NCBI GenBank assembly: GCA_000004985.1
Contig: GG738859.1
DNA: 64,000 nt
Direction: 5' to 3' (one strand)
DNA from: Naegleria gruberi
Lineage: Eukaryota
Part shown: positions 56,267 through 64,000 of the stretch, one piece after another
Layout: the number at the start of each line of letters is the position of its first letter
Numbering within the stretch: the stretch's first letter is position 1
The notes under the pieces: generated by a model
Seen by the model: only the letters and a program-made list of their open reading frames with translations
Database searches by the model: none
What the model was told of the DNA's origin: nothing
Translations under genes and position numbers: made by a program

Positions 56267-56578
56267 ATGTCATCGAATGAAGGGAAGGAATTAATTTATA
56301 AAGGAACATCGTGGGAATATGCTCAAGATTGTTTTAAATACTACAAAATATTAACTGAAAGAAAATTGGAATCAACAAAAAGATACATGCTCACATATCC
56401 AACTGTTTTTATTTCTTATGGTACTCTGATTATCGGAATGGGTGCTATCTATTTTAAAACAACAAGAGATTTGAAAAAAGCAACCCAACTTGTTAAAACC
56501 AATTTACCAGATGTGAAAAAACAGAGAGTTTTGACTCTTGTGAAGGAAGCTAATGAAGTTAAGAAATTAGGAAAATAA
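56267..56578 (+). CDS. Small hypothetical single-TM protein (103 aa)
   Basis: ATG 34 bp after the SMPD4-like stop. One hydrophobic helix TYPTVFISYGTLIIGMGAIYF. No family recognised. Confidence 0.35.
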   Translation: MSSNEGKELIYKGTSWEYAQDCFKYYKILTERKLESTKRYMLTYPTVFISYGTLIIGMGAIYFKTTRDLKKATQLVKTNLPDVKKQRVLTLVKEANEVKKLGK

Positions 56579-56643
56579 TTTATTCAAAATCTACATGTTG
56601 GAGTAAAAGAAACCTAGAATCTATCAAGTAATGAGGAATAAAA

Positions 56644-59070
56644 TTAATAGAAGAAATTGCCGCTGGCTTCTTCATAAGTAGGTGGACTGAGATCTTCAAG
56701 TGCAGGAGCAGCACCCTTTGCTCTTTCACTATCTCTATCCTCAGTCAATTCAATTTGGTGCAACAAATCTACTGGCTTCTTCTTTTCGGATTTTGGAGTC
56801 TTATTTTTACCCTTATTTTGAACCTTAAGTTGATAAGTTCGGTACTTGTCAATGAGTAATATGAAAATAAAACCAATAGCACACAAAACACCAATTACAA
56901 AAGAGCTAACACCAATTACAATCGAGTCCAAAACTATTCCTCTGCAGAATTGTTCATCCACTTTGTTAATTGCACTTGGAATAAATTGGCATGAAAGTGG
57001 GGTTGTAAACACAGTCATTATTTTTGTAATAACTGTGTCAACCAATGTAAGTGCCTTGTTGTTGATCTTTGCAACAAGAGTTGTCACAGAACCTAAAATC
57101 TCATTTGCCTTATCAGTAATTTGTTGTGGGGCTGTCTTAATATCGTTAGCAACAATAGAGTTGATAACATCAATCAGATTCTTCAATTCAACTAATTTTG
57201 CATCAACTTTGGCCAAATCAGCAAAAATTACTGTCATCTGGTTGGTTGCAGTAACATAATTTTGGTATTTTTTACAAACATCGGTGGTATTGTGAGTAGC
57301 ACAATATGTTTGAATGCTGTTTCTGTTTAAACTTGGATTAGAAGCATGAGCTGTTGCAAGTGAGGAATTGAATTTGGATTCTGCATCAGTCTTAATATCA
57401 GTCAACCCATTCTTGAATTTATCCATATCAGCGTATAAAGTGCTGGTCATTGCGTTATAATCCATTGAAAGACTTAAACTAGTCGATACGTCACCTCCAA
57501 CAGATATAGTTTTAGATATAGAAATCTGACTTGTCATTGATGAAATACTTGAACAAAAGCTGCTGTCAATACCAATAATACTTCTTATGGTTGTAATTGA
57601 TTTTTCTGATCCACCCAAAGTTTCGGTAATGAAATCAGATTTACAATTTAAAACACCCTTTGCAGCAGCTGGGATGGTTGTGTTGAACTGAGCTAGTGGA
57701 TTTCCAGTCAGGTTACCTACTAAGGAAAGGAAAGTGTCTTGTCTTGCAGGTATTTCTTTACAAATATCTTTAGTTATAATCCAAAATGCAATATGCAATG
57801 ATGAAATAATGAAAAACAACCAGAAGGTAATAAAGATACAACAAGCTGGAGCCTTGAACAAGAATTTCTTGTTTGCACAAATACCAATAGTTACCGCAAA
57901 GAAGAACAATAATGGAGCAGCAACAATAACCAATTCTACTGCAAGTCTAACAGAGTCGGCAATATTAACATATGATACATAGAGTGAAACTTGTTCAAGT
58001 CCAATTTGTTGTAATGTTGAGGAGAATTGGTTAATGGTTTGGATAATTGAATTTTGAGCAGTTACTACAGCAGAAGTGAAATACTTGTTGTTTGGGTTGG
58101 TAAATTCGTCTTCAACCTGTGAAATAGAAATACTGCAATCATCAATTTGACCTGAAATCTTAATCTTTGTCTGATTGATTACACCGTAAGCTATCCCAAT
58201 TTTTGACAAAATTCCCGATACATCAAATTGAACACCTGAAATTTGGTTGGATTTTCCTTGAGGATCATAAACTATCTTGTTGTTGATGTCATTAAGGATG
58301 ACAGCAACATCATCATGAAGCGTGTCAAATTTTGGAAGTTCATTATCCTCCAGATCCTGAACTTTGCTTCTTACATCCTCTAAAATGTCATTGATACCTT
58401 CAATAGAAACACAAATTTCTTTAGATGGGTTGATGATTAAACTCTTAATTTCTGAGACTGTCTCTGAAATAGCATTTGGCAATCCAACATTAGCAGCTCT
58501 AACAGCACCATTCAAAGTTCCATTGACGTTCGTTAACACTTCATTTCCAGTATCTATGAGTTTTCTTATATTAATACTAAAGAATGCATTGTATGCGGCA
58601 TAAACACCAGCAGCTCCCAATATTATCAAAAAGATAAGGATAATAACTGTTCCAGTACAACAAACTCTCTTTTTAGAGTAACCCGGACCAGAATAAGGAT
58701 CAAATTTCTATTCCACATCATGTTAATATTCCATCGGGAAAGTGAAACTCTAACTTACCTTTAACTTGCTTCCACCACAACAATTACAAACTCTTCTCGA
58801 ACACCAAATACCACAATCTATAATTTCAAGTAAGATACCTATCAGAATAATAGCAACCAAAACAATACCAACAAAGATTAAATAATTAAACCATTCACTA
58901 AGATTGAATAGGTTTTCATCTGAAGGCCACTTAACAGTGACTGTCGTAGGAGCAGAAATTTTGATTGCAGGCAGCTGTCCATACGAATAACTATTACAAT
59001 ATGCCAAACATAAGACAATAGCAATAAGCAATTTTGCCATCATCTTATCGAGAATCTGTATATCCCTCAT
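56644..59070 (-). CDS. Prominin-like pentaspan membrane glycoprotein. Exons 59070..58759 and 58707..56644, 51-nt intron at 58758..58708 (GTAAGT...TGGAATAG).
   Basis: Exon 1 has a signal peptide (MMAKLLIAIVLCLAYC), then TM1 (FNYLIFVGIVLVAIILIGILL) and a Cys cluster (CGIWCSRRVCNCCGG...RVCCTG). Exon 2 has TM2, a ~200-aa loop, TM3 and TM4 (AVELVIVAAPLLFFFAVTIGICA, APACCIFITFWLFFIISSLHIAFWII), a ~330-aa loop, TM5 (IVLDSIVIGVSSFVIGVLCAIGFIFILLI) and a cytoplasmic tail. Topology and the post-TM1 Cys cluster match prominin. Confidence 0.5.
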
Positions 59071-59532
59071 TTGTAGAATATCTATTGATGGTCGGGAAAA
59101 TTGTTGTTTAAGGCTTTTTTTTAAAGTTGGTTTTCATCACAACGGCTCGATCTTTTCACTACAGTCCATCATCGCGAGACAATAATATCATGTAATGGTT
59201 CTGTGTATAACGTTTTTTGTGCTGTTGGTGAGATAGATTTTTGTAGGATTAAGAATCGAGTTCCTTGAAGAACCGTTTCAAGAGGTAAAAAGACAATCAC
59301 CTTAGAATGGAGGAGTTATTAAGCAGTTTGATGAAAGAATTTGCCTTAGTTCAGTGTTCTTCATCATTAACGATGACATACGAATACTGTTCGATTCTGT
59401 TATTGGTTTTTCAGCTTGTTTCCTTCTAACTCCTTTTTCTTTCTGGATTGTTCTAATCGTTCAATCCCGCCAAGTTTATTGTTAAACTTTTTAAATTTAA
59501 AACTATGAATGGCGGGAAAAACTGTTAAAAAA

Positions 59533-61321
59533 ATGCCTGCATCTGAATCTTATCTTCATCACATACCACTCTCAGATTCTATCGGAAGTGATTCAATATT
59601 ATTTTCAAATTTATTATTATTGGGATTTGATCCACACTTACACGAGCAAAAGTAGGTTGTGATGATGCATTGTGATGATTTTAAATATTAAATAGATATA
59701 ACCTGACCTTTCATAAAGACATGTTCAAGAATACAAATATTAAAGGAATGGAAATTATAATGCACTATTTATTTCAAAAATTGGATCCAAAGAGAGCAGA
59801 GAAGGATTTTCAGTTATTATTTCCAGTCTCCGATAAAAAACAAAGAACAACTTTTAGAACTGTTGCCATGCAGTGGTTGAAGGAAATGAAAGACAGAGGG
59901 AGTATTTATATTCTCAACTTGCAACCTACTCTTCTTCAATCTGCTTATGGTGAAAAGTAAGTGGTGTTAAATTTATTGGAATATATTGACACATGACATT
60001 AGTCTTTACACACTACTTTTACAACTTTCGACTCATGCTCTAAAAATTGTATTCGAAAGAGATCATGCTGAATATTTGCAGAAATCAATACCCAAGTCTT
60101 TTTTCAGTAGATTTGAGCAATTATCGCAGCTGCAAGAAACCAAGGCAGCAAAAAATGTAATTATGGTAAGTTTATTTAATTATTCACTCATAAATTCAAT
60201 ACAATCATTAGCTTCATATAAGAAATCAAACTAGGAAATTAATCGAGTGCGCTAGAGTAGCTGTTGATAAACAAGAGAAATGGCAGGATCTAGCTCAAAA
60301 TTTGACAAATGAATACAAGGATATTATTAAACAGGAAGCTGAGCTTGACACAGCAGAAAAAGAATTCAATAGGAGAACTGATTCCTCCTTATTTAGTGAG
60401 TCTAATTCAGTTTATAGAGAAAATCAATTGGATAATGTAGCCTCTCTTTTCAAGAGGATTGAACTCCATCACCAAGAATCTGGTGAAATGAGAGAAATAG
60501 TTAATGATGTAGCGAGTGGACAGGATATTAGAATGAAAATATTCAAAGAGGATATTACAAAAGAGAATCCAAGTATTCATTTTGATAAGTTTGTGAGCAA
60601 TTATGGAGGAAGGAATAAGCTCAATTTACCTCTAATGGTTGACAATTGGACTAAGCAATTATCTACATTACAAACTTTAATGAAACATCACACTATTCAG
60701 TCGGATATAACAACAAAAGATACAACCATGTCTGCGATTGGACAACGAGATGCTCCAGCACTGATAAGAACACTCGATGAGGAATCTAAAAAGCAACAAC
60801 AATATTTAAATTCTACATCCAAGTTCTCTAAAGAAGTTTCTAACCTAGTTAACAAAATGGAAACAAATATCGAAAAGGTTAGGAAACAAATAGACATTAA
60901 TCCACCAAAAATTGCCACTAATTCCAAGTATCCCCTCATACCAATTTCTCCAAAACGAGCCAAGTTTACTAATTCCAATGAAAACTATGAGAAATATTTA
61001 TTACCCCAAGTGGATGAGGAACAAATGATTCAAGAAATGAGAATTTCCATACGGAATCACATACGAGGACCAAACAATTTTGAGCAACAACCTTCCCATC
61101 ACAATGAAAATCAACAACAACACATAATGATAGACGAGACTGCAACTGCTGTAATAGAAAATGATACTCAAGAAGAGGATAAGTGTGTAAATTTTGGAAT
61201 GGATTCAGACGAAACTGCACCAGAAATTCAACAAATACCACCTCCTAGGGCACAAGCTTATGATGAATTGACAATGGAATTGGATGATTTTGAAACATTC
61301 TCAAAGAAGAGGTTTCAATAA
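59533..61321 (+). CDS. HAUS6: HAUS6-like (augmin complex subunit 6) protein. Exons 59533..59651, 59696..59956, 60003..60165 and 60212..61321. Introns of 44, 46 and 46 nt.
   Basis: Exon 1 ...ILFSNLLLLGFDPHLHEQ ends at GTAGGT. Exon 2 KYNLTFHKDMFKNTNIKGMEIIMHYLFQKLDPKRAEKDF (human HAUS6 HTHLGVNMFDKLNRDAFHIIWQFLFNTLDPYRAKKEF) ends at GTAAGT. Exon 3 NLYTLLLQLSTHALK... (human FIHLLYHLSRHV) ends at GTAAGT. Exon 4 continues to the stop. The track fragments are 59721..59960, 59986..60234 and 60302..61321. Confidence 0.55.
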
Positions 61322-61360
61322 TTTCTCTTAAGTTTTTAATGTAAATAAATATTGTAAAAA

Positions 61361-64000
61361 ATGCTTCCATCAACACCACAGCCAACAACAGGCAATCTAT
61401 CAAAACTGTTATCGATGGACAAGGAGGTGATAAACTTGTTCCGAGAACAGATTAAACCACTCTGTTCCGAGTTGGCCTCCCTCTTGCAACAAATATCATA
61501 TCCTCTATCGGTATCAATCACTAAAAGTCTAATTAATAATATTACAAAATTAAAAGAATTAATTGATAATAGTACAAATGATATGGATGTATTTTTGGAT
61601 TATATTACATTTCCACTTTTATTAATATTGGAAAAGGATTATATTTTTAGAAGAAAGCAATATACCGCAAATGGAATACCTGTAAGAATTTTGGAAAATA
61701 CTTTGGATTGTCTTGCTAGCTGTTTTGAGAAGGTGAATAGTATGGATCAATTGGAGAAATTCATAGCACTCTATCAGTCACTTTTCATAATACATGTTAC
61801 TTATCCAGATGATGTCAACACAAGTGGAAGTACAGAGCTTTTCACTTCTACGTCAGTTGGTTCTGGAGAAGAATTGAAAACATCAATTATCAATTCTTTC
61901 AGGAAACTTATCAATTCAAAGTGGAACCATTATTCTTCACAAAATGGATCACTTTTCACATTACACACGACAAGTTTATTTGTTAGTAAGATTTTGGATG
62001 TCACAACAAAGGAGAGAAATAGAGAATTGGTGGAACTTTCAGTGAGAACAATTTGTGATCTATTGCAGGTAACAAAGATTGCAATTTCACATAAGGATCC
62101 ATCAGAATTCTCAAATATTATTGATGGAATTTTCCCTGGACTGATCAGTCAAGTTTGTAAATTGATCATTCAACCACCATATATTTCTACAAAGGTTCAG
62201 TGTGCTGCTTTTGAGCTATTTTCATTAATAACATGTATGAACTGTGCAGATTCTATTAACATTGCACCAAATAGCACAGAAATTGGAAATATTATGGAAG
62301 GAGGATCTGTAACCATTGAGACTTTATCTAATGCTGTTTTTTCGATTGACGAAAAGAATAAGAATAATGGAAAATTTGAAAAGTTTGAACCATTTCTAAA
62401 GAAGGTGTTTAGCATGGAGGTTTATTCACTGTATGGATCTAGCGTTTCTATTGATGATGTGACAGAAATTCAGCAATGTATATTGGACAAGTGCTCAATA
62501 ATTCTCGCTGAGTGCAATCAAACTCTCAATAGTTGCTCTTCTTGCTTGGTTGAGTGCCTTTTGGCTGGTGGAAGGAAAATTGAGCTTGCAGAATTTTCAA
62601 ACGATTCTCAAGACAGTTTCATACAACTCGTCAAGTCCATCCCTAATATCTGTAAAACTACTACCAATGAAAGGCAGAAAGTAAGCACCTATAATTTATT
62701 CCACAACTATTTGGATTTTATATTGCAAACAGAGAATGGTATCGAGTTTGTCTTTTCAGAGCAAATAATGCACGAGCTTTTACTTTCCCTAATGATTTCT
62801 CTCCAAATGGATCGATACAATCCAATTACAGAGGAAAATGAATACCCTAAGAAATCATTCCAACATTTTGTTGATGACAGAATGATTCAAGTTGTCTATA
62901 ATATTTGTAAATTAATTGGAAAACAGCTTGGAGAGAAATCAACAACTTACATTGACTATTTATTGAACTTGTCTGTCACAGCAAAATCAGCAGAACATTC
63001 CTATAAGAATGAAGCAATTTTAATTGTGAATTGTATCTTGGAAGGCATACTGCAACGAGATACCACAACTGAAGAGAGCAAACTAAAAAGTTGCATCAAT
63101 TCTCTCGTTGATAATATCAGTGAGAGACTAAATGAAAACTCATCAGAATCAGTAGAAACCAACTGCTTACTATTGGAAACTATTAGTATTGTTTGTAGAT
63201 TTATTGAGAGAAAGGAAGAGGAAAGAGACATGTTCTTGCTTAAAATATTATATCCAATACTGAATCAATTGGGATATTCATCCATTCATATTACGCAGAG
63301 CTGTTTCAAGACTATTGCTAATATTTCCTTCTTCTTTTATCCAAATAACAACTTTACACCAAGAGAGAATGTTATGAATATCTTGGTTTCAAATTTTGAT
63401 TACATGATTGATGATATCAGATACAGACTCAAATATTTATCTGTCTATCCTCACATACCACGTGTTTTGAATACCCTATTCGAATTCAATGTGATGGGTA
63501 AAAGATTTGAAGAGAAATCGAATGCCACGCAATATATCAATACTGTGACCATAGTGGAAGATTGCATTCAAAGTGTTTTCAATGCTATCGATCAGCAGAC
63601 CTTTGAAAAATCATATTCCAAATCTGCCTTCTCAACTCTCTTCTCTGTTCTTGGTAATATTATCAAAACTATTAATATTCTGAAAATAGAAAGAGAAAAA
63701 TTGGATATTAGTGGCAAAAAGGAACTCTCAGAAAAGGAAATTGAAACCGTGAAATCTATTTTACAAAAACTTCAACATTTTATGAACAGTTCACAAAATA
63801 CATTGATTACCTCCGTTTCATTCTTGTCAATCATAGAGAATGCCATTAATATGTTCCAAAACAGTAATATTAGAGATTTTGATGATAGTACCACTGGAAA
63901 TAAGATTCTACCAAGTCTACATATTTTGTGGCCAATGCTGATGACTCATCTTGTTCAAAAGAGAACTGCCATTCCTCTAAAACAAAGAACCATTGAATTG
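61361..64000 (+). CDS. TTI1: Large HEAT/ARM-repeat protein, TTI1 (Tel2-interacting protein 1)-like. Single open reading frame running off the window end (at least 880 codons).
   Basis: ATG at 61361 (AAAAAATG context), 39 bp after the HAUS6-like stop. No stop codon to position 64000; absent from the ORF track because it is edge-truncated. DMDVFLDYITFPLLLILEKDY...RILENTLDCLASCF resembles human TTI1 [20 protein letters not shown]...LIQSVVECLTFVL. FPGLISQVCKLIIQPPYISTKVQCAAFELFSLIT resembles [34 protein letters not shown]. Confidence 0.55.
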   Translation, partial: MLPSTPQPTTGNLSKLLSMDKEVINLFREQIKPLCSELASLLQQISYPLSVSITKSLINNITKLKELIDNSTNDMDVFLDYITFPLLLILEKDYIFRRKQYTANGIPVRILENTLDCLASCFEKVNSMDQLEKFIALYQSLFIIHVTYPDDVNTSGSTELFTSTSVGSGEELKTSIINSFRKLINSKWNHYSSQNGSLFTLHTTSLFVSKILDVTTKERNRELVELSVRTICDLLQVTKIAISHKDPSEFSNIIDGIFPGLISQVCKLIIQPPYISTKVQCAAFELFSLITCMNCADSINIAPNSTEIGNIMEGGSVTIETLSNAVFSIDEKNKNNGKFEKFEPFLKKVFSMEVYSLYGSSVSIDDVTEIQQCILDKCSIILAECNQTLNSCSSCLVECLLAGGRKIELAEFSNDSQDSFIQLVKSIPNICKTTTNERQKVSTYNLFHNYLDFILQTENGIEFVFSEQIMHELLLSLMISLQMDRYNPITEENEYPKKSFQHFVDDRMIQVVYNICKLIGKQLGEKSTTYIDYLLNLSVTAKSAEHSYKNEAILIVNCILEGILQRDTTTEESKLKSCINSLVDNISERLNENSSESVETNCLLLETISIVCRFIERKEEERDMFLLKILYPILNQLGYSSIHITQSCFKTIANISFFFYPNNNFTPRENVMNILVSNFDYMIDDIRYRLKYLSVYPHIPRVLNTLFEFNVMGKRFEEKSNATQYINTVTIVEDCIQSVFNAIDQQTFEKSYSKSAFSTLFSVLGNIIKTINILKIEREKLDISGKKELSEKEIETVKSILQKLQHFMNSSQNTLITSVSFLSIIENAINMFQNSNIRDFDDSTTGNKILPSLHILWPMLMTHLVQKRTAIPLKQRTIEL

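What the first reader, a model, noticed from the sequence alone, without database searches (positions are those of the whole stretch)
56644..59070. Prominin-like pentaspan glycoprotein in a protist-type genome
Joining ORFs 58750..59070 and 56644..58629 across a 51-nt intron gives a ~790-aa protein. It has a signal peptide, TM1 followed by a Cys cluster, TM2, a ~200-aa loop, TM3/TM4, a ~330-aa loop, TM5 and a cytoplasmic tail ending YEEASGNFFY.

This five-TM arrangement, the two large extracellular loops and the cysteine-rich stretch after TM1 are the defining layout of prominin (CD133). Prominin is usually regarded as a metazoan membrane-protrusion and cilium-associated protein. Sequence similarity is too low for me to confirm by eye, so this rests on topology.
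Basis: inference. Interest (0 to 1): 0.5.

Follow-up and report, generated by a model that had tools for sequence, protein, structure and literature searches.

The report
Naegleria prominin-like five-pass membrane protein
This is a real two-exon gene of the amoeba Naegleria gruberi that encodes a very divergent relative of the animal membrane protein prominin (CD133), but prominin-like proteins in Naegleria and other protists have already been reported, so it is a sound and fairly ordinary find.

Summary
Exon 1 (59070..58759), a 51-nt GTAAGT..TAG phase-0 intron and exon 2 (58707..56644) on the minus strand give a 791-aa protein. That protein is exactly the annotated Naegleria gruberi NEG-M "predicted protein" XP_002679098.1 / NAEGRDRAFT_65710.

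Its layout is a signal peptide, TM1, a cysteine-rich cytoplasmic loop, TM2, a 213-aa ectoloop, TM3/TM4, a 281-aa ectoloop, TM5 and a 71-aa tail.

Pfam does not hit the protein directly. The evidence for homology is indirect:
- A profile of it and its heterolobosean relatives aligns collinearly with mammalian prominin-1 from TM1 to TM4. hhalign gives 98.6 %, E 9e-16, score 136.6, against 40±7 for block-shuffled controls.
- Remoter homologues pass the Pfam thresholds for Prominin, Tweety or both.

By sequence and by loop size it lies on the prominin side of the Prominin/TTYH superfamily, although the hallmark TM5 tryptophan is absent.

Prominin-like proteins in N. gruberi (GenBank JN679227/8) and prominins in excavates are already published. 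Any role in outer-leaflet lipid or sterol handling and membrane curvature is inferred, not shown.

The parts
58759..59070 (-). Exon 1 (aa 1-104): start codon, signal-like hydrophobic N-terminus, short ecto N-terminus with a conserved WP motif, TM1, and the first part of the Cys-rich cytoplasmic loop.
   Evidence: The spliced product is identical to XP_002679098.1. It aligns with the N-terminus of the N. lovaniensis orthologue.
58708..58758 (-). Intron 1: 51 nt, GTAAGT...TAG, phase 0.
   Evidence: The same position and phase are found in the N. lovaniensis orthologue, where the intron is 145 nt.
56644..58707 (-). Exon 2 (aa 105-791 plus the TAA stop).
58978..59043 (-). Predicted signal peptide region (aa 10-31, MMAKLLIAIVLCLAYCNSYSYG).
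   Evidence: Hydropathy and translation. Cleavage is inferred, not predicted with a dedicated tool.
58819..58887 (-). TM1 (aa 62-84).
   Evidence: It is 70 % identical to the N. lovaniensis orthologue, against 34 % overall. It aligns with prominin-1 TM1.
58657..58818 (-). Cytoplasmic loop 1 (aa 85-121, interrupted by the intron). It is Cys-rich: DCGIWCSRRVCNCCGGSK...KRVCC, 7 Cys and 8 K/R.
   Evidence: This is the most conserved segment, 73 % identical to the orthologue. It aligns with the prominin-1 motif FCxCRCCNKCGGEM.
58585..58656 (-). TM2 (aa 122-145), which continues as a long ectodomain helix.
   Evidence: (helix 116-248).
57946..58584 (-). Extracellular loop 1 (aa 146-358, 213 aa): all-helical, with 2 N-glycosylation sequons and 2 Cys.
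   Evidence: It aligns with ectoloop 1 of prominin-1.
57775..57945 (-). TM3 (aa 359-381), the 10-aa cytoplasmic loop 2 (ANKKFLFKAP) and TM4 (aa 392-415, with the near-invariant W400).
   Evidence: This is the best-scoring region against prominin-1. It is also the region where the remote homologues P0034 and P0031 give weak matches to TTYH chains.
56932..57774 (-). Extracellular loop 2 (aa 416-696, 281 aa): helical, with 4 N-glycosylation sequons. It carries the family-wide conserved cysteines C420, C459, C677 and C692.
   Evidence: In a global alignment the four Cys fall on the four invariant ectoloop-2 Cys of prominin-1, but the score of that alignment is low.
56860..56931 (-). TM5 (aa 697-720), with the F-x-I-G motif (F707-G710).
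   Evidence: It is 67 % identical to the orthologue. There is no Trp at the position matching human W795.
56647..56859 (-). Cytoplasmic tail (aa 721-791): basic juxtamembrane DKYRTYQLK..., a PPTY motif, and the terminal residues FFY.
   Evidence: The tail is poorly conserved (25 %) except for DKY.TY and the C-terminal F.Y.

Best explanation
The locus is the intact, two-exon Naegleria gruberi gene NAEGRDRAFT_65710. It encodes a 791-aa, N-out/C-in, five-pass membrane protein, probably N-glycosylated, that is a highly divergent member of the prominin family within the wider Prominin/TTYH superfamily.

**Shown here:**
- the gene model
- the 2+2+1 TM topology with two long all-helical ectoloops
- a conserved heterolobosean gene family with at least three paralogous lineages
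- significant, collinear profile similarity to animal prominin-1
- a predicted fold whose only solved counterpart is TTYH

**Inferred mechanism.** The five TM helices extend into a tall extracellular helical bundle, pinned near the membrane by two disulfides formed from the four conserved ectoloop-2 cysteines. The Cys-rich loop after TM1 is a likely palmoylation (S-acylation) site that anchors the protein in ordered lipid. As in prominin (cholesterol binding, membrane bending, vesicle release) and TTYH (a hydrophobic cavity open to the outer leaflet, lipid transfer), the protein would bind or organise outer-leaflet lipids and sterols. It would thereby shape or mark curved plasma-membrane structures of the amoeba or flagellate: pseudopodia, food cups, the flagellar membrane, or shed vesicles.
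For: **Gene and identity.**

**Family.** 31 homologues at E<1e-3 among 1.84 billion representatives. They include N. lovaniensis, N. fowleri (named 'Prominin' in UniRef), Willaertia magna and Mastigamoeba.

**Pfam results on homologues.**
- 9 of 28 hit Prominin and 9 of 28 hit Tweety.
- Above the curated cut-off: Willaertia P0014 (Tweety 43 bits), Mastigamoeba P0031 (Prominin 44.6 and Tweety 42.4), P0034 (Tweety 57.8 and Prominin 50.4).

**Profile-profile comparison with prominin-1.**
- Family against 18 mammalian prominin-1 sequences: Prob 98.6 %, E 9e-16, score 136.6, 330 columns from TM1 to TM4 in register, including the Cys motif.
- Controls: 59.6 for the reversed profile and 40±7 for shuffles.
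- Every protist subgroup scores higher against prominin than against TTYH. The orthologue group scores 69.6 v 38.8, the paralogue group 129.2 v 44.1.

**Structure.**
- AlphaFold model with mean pLDDT 78.1, all-helical.
- Foldseek against the PDB: ranks 1-6 and 8-11 are TTYH1/2/3, E from 1.4e-4.

**Other features.**
- The ectoloops of 213 and 281 aa match prominin (about 280 aa) rather than TTYH (about 120 aa) (PMC11405016).
- TM1, the Cys loop and TM5 are the most conserved parts, at 67-73 % against 28 % for the ectoloops. This points to a membrane-embedded function.

**Functional background.** PMC11405016 (Prom1 and Ttyh1 bind cholesterol and make vesicles) and PMC12328215 (the TTYH lipid cavity and lipid transfer).
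Against: - The protein itself has no Pfam Prominin or Tweety hit even at E<=10.
- Its closest paralogues are below the Prominin gathering threshold.
- The C-terminal half (ectoloop 2 and TM5) is not significantly similar to prominin-1 on its own, scoring 26.5 against 18.2 for the reversed control.
- Trp-795 in TM5 is described as the most conserved prominin residue across eukaryotes (PMC11405016). It is replaced here (it aligns with Ser706), and no family member has a Trp there.
- Cytoplasmic loop 1 is 37 aa, longer than the <25 aa criterion used in PMC11405016.
- Reversed-profile controls reach 86.9 % 'probability'. hhalign probabilities for such helical and TM-rich profiles are therefore inflated, and only the score margin counts.
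- No prominin structure exists in the PDB copy, and the AlphaFold database libraries were unavailable. The fold could therefore not be compared with prominin directly.
- Nothing here tests localisation, glycosylation, acylation or lipid binding.
Confidence: 0.78

Rival explanations
1. The protein belongs to the Prominin/TTYH superfamily but is not specifically a prominin. It would be either a TTYH-like lipid-transfer facilitator with lengthened ectodomain helices, or an independent third branch descended from the common ancestor. Calling it 'prominin' would then be a matter of size resemblance only.
For: - The only solved structures it matches are TTYH1-3.
- Its Willaertia relative P0014 passes the Tweety threshold but not the Prominin threshold.
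- Remote homologues hit both families about equally.
- The prominin-specific Trp-795 is absent, as it is in TTYH (PMC11405016).
- Human PROM1 itself cross-hits the Tweety model at TM1-TM2 with 24 bits, so the two Pfam models do not separate cleanly.
Against: - In hhalign the family scores 136.6 against prominin-1 but only 45.0 against TTYH, which is inside the null range.
- All five protist subgroups prefer prominin.
- The ectoloop lengths and the signal peptide are prominin-like.
- TTYH's top rank in the fold searches is uninformative, because no prominin structure is in the library.
- The TTYH profile had only 3 sequences, which weakens that comparison.
Confidence: 0.17
2. The resemblance is convergent. 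On this view it is an unrelated lineage-specific helical surface glycoprotein that happens to have five TM segments, and the similarity scores are driven by TM and coiled-coil composition.
For: - There is no direct Pfam or PDB sequence hit.
- The profile search of PDB sequences returned only coiled-coil and helical-bundle noise.
- The reversed-profile control reached a score of 59.6.
- Identity to prominin-1 is only about 14 %.
Against: - The real score is about 13.7 SD above the block-shuffled controls (136.6 against 40.1±7.0).
- The alignment is collinear across four TM helices and the Cys motif.
- There is a chain of significant intermediate homologues that pass the curated Pfam thresholds.
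- The four ectoloop-2 cysteines have matching spacing.
Confidence: 0.04
3. The gene model is wrong, and the two ORFs are separate genes or a pseudogene.
For: Prokaryote-style gene callers on metagenome contigs report the two exons as separate proteins: P0001 of 658 aa and P0015 of 97 aa.
Against: - The intron has canonical boundaries and is in frame.
- The spliced product equals the RefSeq model.
- Full-length orthologues align without a gap across the junction.
- The intron position is conserved.
- A 99 % identical environmental N. gruberi contig carries only 2 amino-acid changes in 658 residues.
Confidence: 0.01

Closest known systems
Prominin-1/CD133 and the prominin family (Pfam PF05478)
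   Same: - Signal peptide and N-out/C-in orientation.
- Five TM helices in a 2+2+1 pattern.
- A Cys-rich basic loop after TM1: CSRRVCNCCGGSK here against CMCRCCNKCGGEM in prominin-1.
- Two long helical ectoloops (213 and 281 aa here, about 255 and 290 aa in prominin-1) with N-glycosylation sequons.
- Four conserved ectoloop-2 cysteines with similar spacing.
- An F-x-I-G motif in TM5 and a K-Y juxtamembrane motif.
- Significant collinear profile similarity from TM1 to TM4.
   Different: - Only about 14 % identity.
- No direct Pfam hit.
- Trp-795 of TM5 is not conserved.
- The N-terminal ectodomain is shorter (about 30 aa against about 90 aa).
- Cytoplasmic loop 2 is shorter (10 aa against about 24 aa).
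- The tail has no counterpart of the mammalian Tyr-phosphorylation sites.
- The organism is a free-living amoeboflagellate without microvilli.
Tweety homologues TTYH1-3 (Pfam PF04906; PDB 7P5J, 7P54, 7RTT, 9QNR)
   Same: - The same five-TM fold, with TM helices continuing into an extracellular helical bundle.
- A cysteine cluster after TM1.
- Four ectoloop-2 cysteines with the same 15-residue spacing of the last pair (read from the sequences).
- Relatives of the Naegleria protein pass the Tweety threshold.
   Different: - TTYH ectoloops are about half as long (about 105-130 aa).
- TTYH has no cleavable signal peptide; instead it has an N-terminal amphipathic helix.
- Sequence-profile similarity to the Naegleria family is not above background (score 45).
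- TTYH's partner APOE has no known Naegleria equivalent (my own knowledge).
N. gruberi 'prominin-like' cDNAs JN679227.1 and JN679228.1 (cited in PMC10967083), and the N. fowleri 'Prominin' A0A6A5CE08
   Same: They come from the same genus or species and the same protein family. The N. fowleri protein (P0017) is a homologue at E 1.3e-42 to the family profile.
   Different: The two GenBank records could not be retrieved here, so whether either one is this locus is unknown. UniRef100_D2VA21 is listed with n=1, which suggests that no identical second UniProt entry exists. P0017 is a paralogue (about 19-20 % identity), not the orthologue.

Membership tests
Prominin (PF05478) | Match to the Pfam Prominin HMM above the gathering threshold (34.3 bits). 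| tested here: not met
   The query has no hit even at E<=10. The Naegleria paralogues P0016, P0017 and P0018 reach 19.3-26.9 bits. Only the remote homologues P0031 (44.6) and P0034 (50.4) pass.
Prominin (PF05478) | Detectable homology to annotated metazoan prominins (the criterion of PMC11405016). | tested here: met
   hhalign of family A3 against 18 mammalian PROM1: Prob 98.6 %, E 9e-16, score 136.6, 330 columns. Reversed control 59.6 and block shuffles 40±7. The orthologue-only profile gives 93.9 % and score 69.6.
Prominin (PF05478) | Five TM helices in a 2+2+1 pattern with an extracellular N-terminus and a cytoplasmic C-terminus. | tested here: met
   Hydropathy, AlphaFold helices, and the distribution of charges, sequons and cysteines. 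No dedicated topology predictor was available.
Prominin (PF05478) | [quoted passage not shown] | tested here: inconclusive
   The ectoloops are 213 and 281 aa, which is prominin-sized and about twice TTYH. Cytoplasmic loop 2 is 10 aa, but cytoplasmic loop 1 is 37 aa.
Prominin (PF05478) | A cysteine-rich segment immediately after TM1. | tested here: met
   Seven Cys in aa 85-121. The segment aligns with the prominin-1 motif FCxCRCCNKCGGEM. It is 73 % conserved between Naegleria orthologues.
Prominin (PF05478) | The near-universal Trp in TM5 (human W795). | tested here: not met
   No Trp occurs in TM5 of any of the 12 family members. In the global alignment W795 falls on Ser706, while the adjacent F-x-I-G motif is kept (a low-confidence alignment).
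Prominin (PF05478) | Cholesterol binding, localisation to membrane protrusions or cilia, and vesicle release. | not testable with these tools
   This needs experiments. No paper mentions this locus.
Tweety/TTYH (PF04906) | Match to the Pfam Tweety HMM above the gathering threshold (31.8 bits). | tested here: not met
   The query has no hit. Its Willaertia relative P0014 passes at 43 bits over TM1-TM2. Human PROM1 itself gives 24 bits in that region.
Tweety/TTYH (PF04906) | The TTYH fold: five TM helices continuous with an extracellular helical bundle. | tested here: met
Tweety/TTYH (PF04906) | A compact ectodomain (loops of about 105-130 aa) and no signal peptide. | tested here: not met
   The loops are 213 and 281 aa and there is a hydrophobic signal-like N-terminus.
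Tweety/TTYH (PF04906) | Profile-level sequence similarity to TTYH1/2. | tested here: inconclusive
   Score 45.0, Prob 59 %, over 41 columns at TM3. The match is in register but lies within the null range. The TTYH profile had only 3 sequences.
Prominin/TTYH superfamily | Four conserved cysteines in ectoloop 2: two near TM4, and two spaced 15-16 residues apart just before TM5. | tested here: met
   C420, C459, C677 and C692 are invariant or nearly invariant in the family. In the global alignment they fall on PROM1 C507, C554, C759 and C775. TTYH1 has C274, C303, C370 and C385 (sequence). Disulfide pairing itself was not checked.

The most novel reading that the evidence does not exclude
The heterolobosean family, with at least three paralogous lineages in Naegleria and Willaertia, together with the roughly 700-aa protist proteins that hit both the Prominin and Tweety models, may descend from a long-ectodomain pentaspan protein already present in the last eukaryotic common ancestor. 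Animal prominins would then be its direct heirs and TTYHs a shortened offshoot. In Naegleria the protein would act on flagellar or pseudopodial membrane, or in vesicle shedding. That would make the amoeba-to-flagellate switch a unicellular system for testing the ancestral function of prominin.
Probability: 0.3. Interest if true: 0.45.

Novelty: new member of a known kind. Interest (0 to 1): 0.22.

Why it matters
The function of prominin/CD133 is still debated, and TTYH has only recently been linked to lipid transfer. A clearly homologous protein in a deeply branching free-living amoeboflagellate confirms that this pentaspan architecture predates animals, and it gives a simple cell in which to ask what the ancestral job was. 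The gain is mainly in annotation. A 'predicted protein' that Pfam misses can now be labelled prominin-like, and the analysis shows that the TM5 tryptophan is not universal. The general point, that prominins exist in Naegleria and other excavates, is already in the literature (PMC10967083, PMC11405016), so the surprise for a specialist is small.

Tried and rejected
- **Direct Pfam scan of the protein:** only sub-threshold noise such as Zip and SF-assemblin.
- **phmmer and profile searches against PDB sequences:** nothing, or coiled-coil noise.
- **Second word-indexed homologue search with the family alignment:** nothing new.
- **First AlphaFold run with a 2-sequence alignment:** unusable, pLDDT 37.6. 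It was replaced by a 31-sequence run.
- **AlphaFold-database fold libraries (afdb50, afdb_sample):** not installed, so no direct structural comparison with PROM1 was possible. The PDB copy holds no prominin chain.
- **C-terminal half alone against prominin-1 or TTYH:** not significant.
- **Search for a paralogue inside the window:** none found.
- **Literature search for the locus tag and accessions:** none found. The supplements of PMC11405016 do not list Naegleria.
- **Sequences used as queries:** PROM1 gave Pfam Prominin 1028 bits over the full profile. TTYH1 was identical to 7P5J chain A. The prominin profile used for the tests was built only from database sequences.
- **Ion channel idea (the old TTYH annotation):** considered and dropped as a basis for function, because the channel role of TTYH has been refuted (PMC12328215).
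Full report
**1. Observation**

The window is AT-rich (about 33 % GC). Four of its long ORFs are exact matches to Naegleria gruberi NEG-M proteins on a 530-kb scaffold.

On the minus strand, ORF 59070..58750 and ORF 58629..56644 are separated by sequence that contains a canonical 51-nt intron. It runs 58758..58708, GTAAGT...TAG, in phase 0. Joining 59070..58759 to 58707..56644 gives a 2376-nt CDS and a 791-aa protein. That protein is identical to EFC46354.1 / XP_002679098.1 / NAEGRDRAFT_65710 / UniProt D2VA21, annotated only as 'predicted protein'.

Two further results support the splice:
- The N. lovaniensis orthologue C9374_010661 (P0002, 784 aa, 34 % identity) aligns without a gap across the junction.
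- Its gene has an intron at the same codon and phase, after aa 104 and 145 nt long. It also has a second 46-nt intron near aa 305 that N. gruberi lacks.

**2. Anatomy**

Hydropathy, the AlphaFold helices and translation of the sub-intervals give this layout:

| Segment | Residues | Notes |
|---|---|---|
| Signal-like N-terminus | 10-31 | hydrophobic |
| Ecto N-terminus | about 32-61 | short, with a conserved WP motif |
| TM1 | 62-84 | |
| Cytoplasmic loop 1 | 85-121 | 37 aa, basic, 7 cysteines (DCGIWCSRRVCNCCGGSK...KRVCC) |
| TM2 | 122-145 | |
| Ectoloop 1 | 146-358 | 213 aa, helical |
| TM3 | 359-381 | |
| Cytoplasmic loop 2 | 382-391 | 10 aa |
| TM4 | 392-415 | |
| Ectoloop 2 | 416-696 | 281 aa, helical |
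| TM5 | 697-720 | |
| Tail | 721-791 | 71 aa |

Seven of the eight N-x-S/T sequons lie in the predicted extracellular parts. K/R residues cluster in the three cytoplasmic segments.

Between the N. gruberi and N. lovaniensis orthologues, TM1 (70 %), the Cys loop (73 %) and TM5 (67 %) are far more conserved than the ectoloops (28 %). Across the wider family the invariant or nearly invariant residues are C420, C459, C677, C692, R358, W400, G469, G710 and K725. The one correction is that ectoloop 2 is about 281 aa, not about 330.

**3. Relatives**

A word-indexed search found only the same gene on a metagenome contig and the N. lovaniensis orthologue.

An exhaustive HMMER search of 1.84 billion representatives with the two-sequence profile found 31 proteins at E<1e-3. 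Those that carry names are:
- further Naegleria paralogues: N. lovaniensis C9374_000253, and N. fowleri FDP41_007633, which UniRef calls 'Prominin'
- two Willaertia magna proteins
- a Mastigamoeba balamuthi protein

The rest are unnamed metagenome proteins. Full-length members share the 2+2+1 TM pattern. No paralogue lies in this window.

**4. Link to known families by sequence**

The protein itself has no Pfam hit. Nothing significant appears in PDB sequences, whether searched with the single sequence or with the profile, which returned only coiled-coil noise.

Among 28 homologues, 9 match Pfam Prominin and 9 match Pfam Tweety.

Above the curated thresholds:

| Homologue | Prominin (bits) | Tweety (bits) |
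|---|---|---|
| Willaertia P0014 | - | 43 |
| Mastigamoeba P0031 | 44.6 | 42.4 |
| P0034 | 50.4 | 57.8 |
| P0038 | - | 35.3 |
| P0040 | 33.9 (below cut-off) | 46.1 |
| P0041 | 26.8 (below cut-off) | 44.4 |

The Naegleria paralogues P0016-18 reach only 19-27 bits on Prominin, against a cut-off of 34.3.

To test homology directly I needed real prominin sequences. It also cross-hits Tweety at TM1-TM2 with 24 bits. I then used it to fetch database prominins and aligned 18 mammalian PROM1 sequences (A5).

hhalign of the 12-sequence heterolobosean/protist family (A3) against A5 gives Prob 98.6 %, E 9e-16 and score 136.6 over 330 columns. The alignment runs collinearly through:
- TM1
- the cysteine motif (f.C.Rr.C.cCGg.K against FClCRCCNkCGGeM)
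- TM2
- ectoloop 1
- TM3
- TM4

Controls were needed, because such helical and TM-rich profiles score high by composition:
- The reversed prominin profile gives 59.6.
- Sixteen shuffles of 25-column blocks give 40.1±7.0, with a maximum of 55.1.

The real score is therefore about 13.7 SD above the null.

Against a small TTYH profile the family scores only 45.0. That profile held human TTYH1, verified as identical to 7P5J, and mouse and human TTYH2 read from the PDB alignments. The match is in register at TM3 but within the null range. PROM1 against TTYH scores 30.

Scores of the subgroups against the two profiles:

| Subgroup | v prominin | v TTYH |
|---|---|---|
| Orthologue group alone | 69.6 | 38.8 |
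| Heterolobosean paralogues | 129.2 (587 columns, nearly full length) | 44.1 |
| Mastigamoeba-type group | 181.9 | 95.2 |

Every subgroup prefers prominin. The last group bridges the two animal families.

The C-terminal half alone is not significant (26.5 against 18.2 for the reversed control). A global alignment nevertheless places C420, C459, C677 and C692 on the four invariant ectoloop-2 cysteines of PROM1. It also aligns F707-x-x-G710 with the F-G-I-G of TM5. The tryptophan that PMC11405016 describes as nearly universal in prominins (human W795) falls on Ser706, and no family member has a Trp there.

**5. Link by structure**

AlphaFold with two sequences failed (pLDDT 37.6). With 31 sequences it gave a confident all-helical model (mean pLDDT 78.1). 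The TM helices in that model are above 85, and they continue into long ectodomain helices.

- Foldseek against the PDB: ranks 1-6 and 8-11 are TTYH1/2/3, with E from 1.4e-4.

The PDB copy has no prominin chain, and the AlphaFold-database libraries were unavailable. The fold result therefore shows membership of the Prominin/TTYH superfamily, but it cannot discriminate within it.

**6. What it most likely does (inference)**

Prom1 binds cholesterol, bends membrane and drives vesicle release, and Ttyh1 does likewise (PMC11405016). TTYH2 has a hydrophobic cavity that opens from the outer leaflet, holds phospholipid and sterol, and promotes lipid transfer to and from APOE particles (PMC12328215).

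The Naegleria protein keeps the membrane-embedded core, the juxtamembrane cysteines and the Cys-rich cytoplasmic loop most strongly, while its ectodomain surface drifts. I therefore propose an outer-leaflet lipid- or sterol-organising pentaspan glycoprotein. It would probably be S-acylated on loop 1 and would act at curved plasma membrane: pseudopodia, food cups, the flagellar membrane after differentiation, or shed vesicles. None of this is tested here.

**7. Novelty**

- PMC10967083 states that prominin-like proteins were identified in N. gruberi (GenBank JN679227.1 and JN679228.1).
- PMC11405016 curated prominins from excavates, SAR, fungi and green plants.
- UniRef names an N. fowleri paralogue 'Prominin'.

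I could not retrieve the two GenBank records. UniRef100_D2VA21 is shown with n=1, and no paper cites this locus. This particular gene may therefore not have been named yet.

I file it as a new, unannotated and Pfam-invisible member of a known kind. It is of modest interest as an annotation gain, and as evidence that the TM5 tryptophan is not universal.

**8. Verdict**

- Observation: confirmed.
- Interpretation: supported. The protein is prominin-like and lies within the Prominin/TTYH superfamily.
- Mechanism: inferred by homology.
- Novelty: low.
- Interest: 0.22.

Noticed in passing
window 56284..63627 (= locus L001): An ENA metagenome contig of 9.8 kb (ERZ929261 / ERR1078381 / PRJEB11402) is 99.06 % identical to this stretch over 7.35 kb. 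It encodes the exon-2 product with only 2 amino-acid changes. This means N. gruberi or a very close strain is present in that sample.
   Followed up: partly
window 58750..59043 and homologous metagenome fragments P0015, P0019, P0023 and P0030: Prokaryote-style gene calling on metagenome contigs splits this gene family at the conserved intron. Exon 1 (signal peptide, TM1 and Cys motif) circulates in protein catalogues as separate 'proteins' of about 100-150 aa, and exon 2 as N-terminally truncated ones (P0001, P0013, P0021).
   Followed up: partly
window 59721..61321 (+) and about 61353..63620 (+): The divergently transcribed upstream neighbour appears to be a multi-exon HAUS6-like gene. Its ORFs are 59721..59960, 59986..60234 and 60302..61321, and Pfam HAUS6_N hits the equivalent ORF of L001. 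It is followed by a TTI1-like gene. The coordinates were mapped from the gene calls on L001 through the blastn alignment.
   Followed up: no
window 56671..56682 (-), aa 780-783: The cytoplasmic tail carries a PPTY (PPxY) motif, a potential binding site for WW-domain or Nedd4-type ligases of the kind used in ESCRT-dependent budding. It is absent from the N. lovaniensis orthologue. Only the juxtamembrane DKY.TY and the C-terminal F-x-Y are shared.
   Followed up: no
locus L002 6001..8549 (N. lovaniensis PYSW02000044.1): The orthologue has a second short intron, 46 nt near aa 305, that N. gruberi lacks. The shared first intron differs in length, 145 nt against 51 nt. At the DNA level only the TM1/Cys-motif segment is still alignable (71 % over 135 nt).
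   Followed up: partly
Pfam models PF05478 and PF04906 (not in the window): Human prominin-1 cross-hits the Tweety model (24 bits, TM1-TM2). Several roughly 700-aa protist proteins (P0031, P0034, and nearly P0040) pass both curated thresholds on different parts of the chain. Yet mammalian PROM1 and TTYH profiles are not detectably similar to each other in hhalign (score 30). The protist sequences are what connects the two animal families.
   Followed up: partly
window 56267..56578 (+): A convergent 103-aa ORF with one hydrophobic segment lies 65 bp beyond the stop codon of the gene. The equivalent 97-aa ORF is called on the metagenome contig. It has no Pfam hit on record.
   Followed up: no
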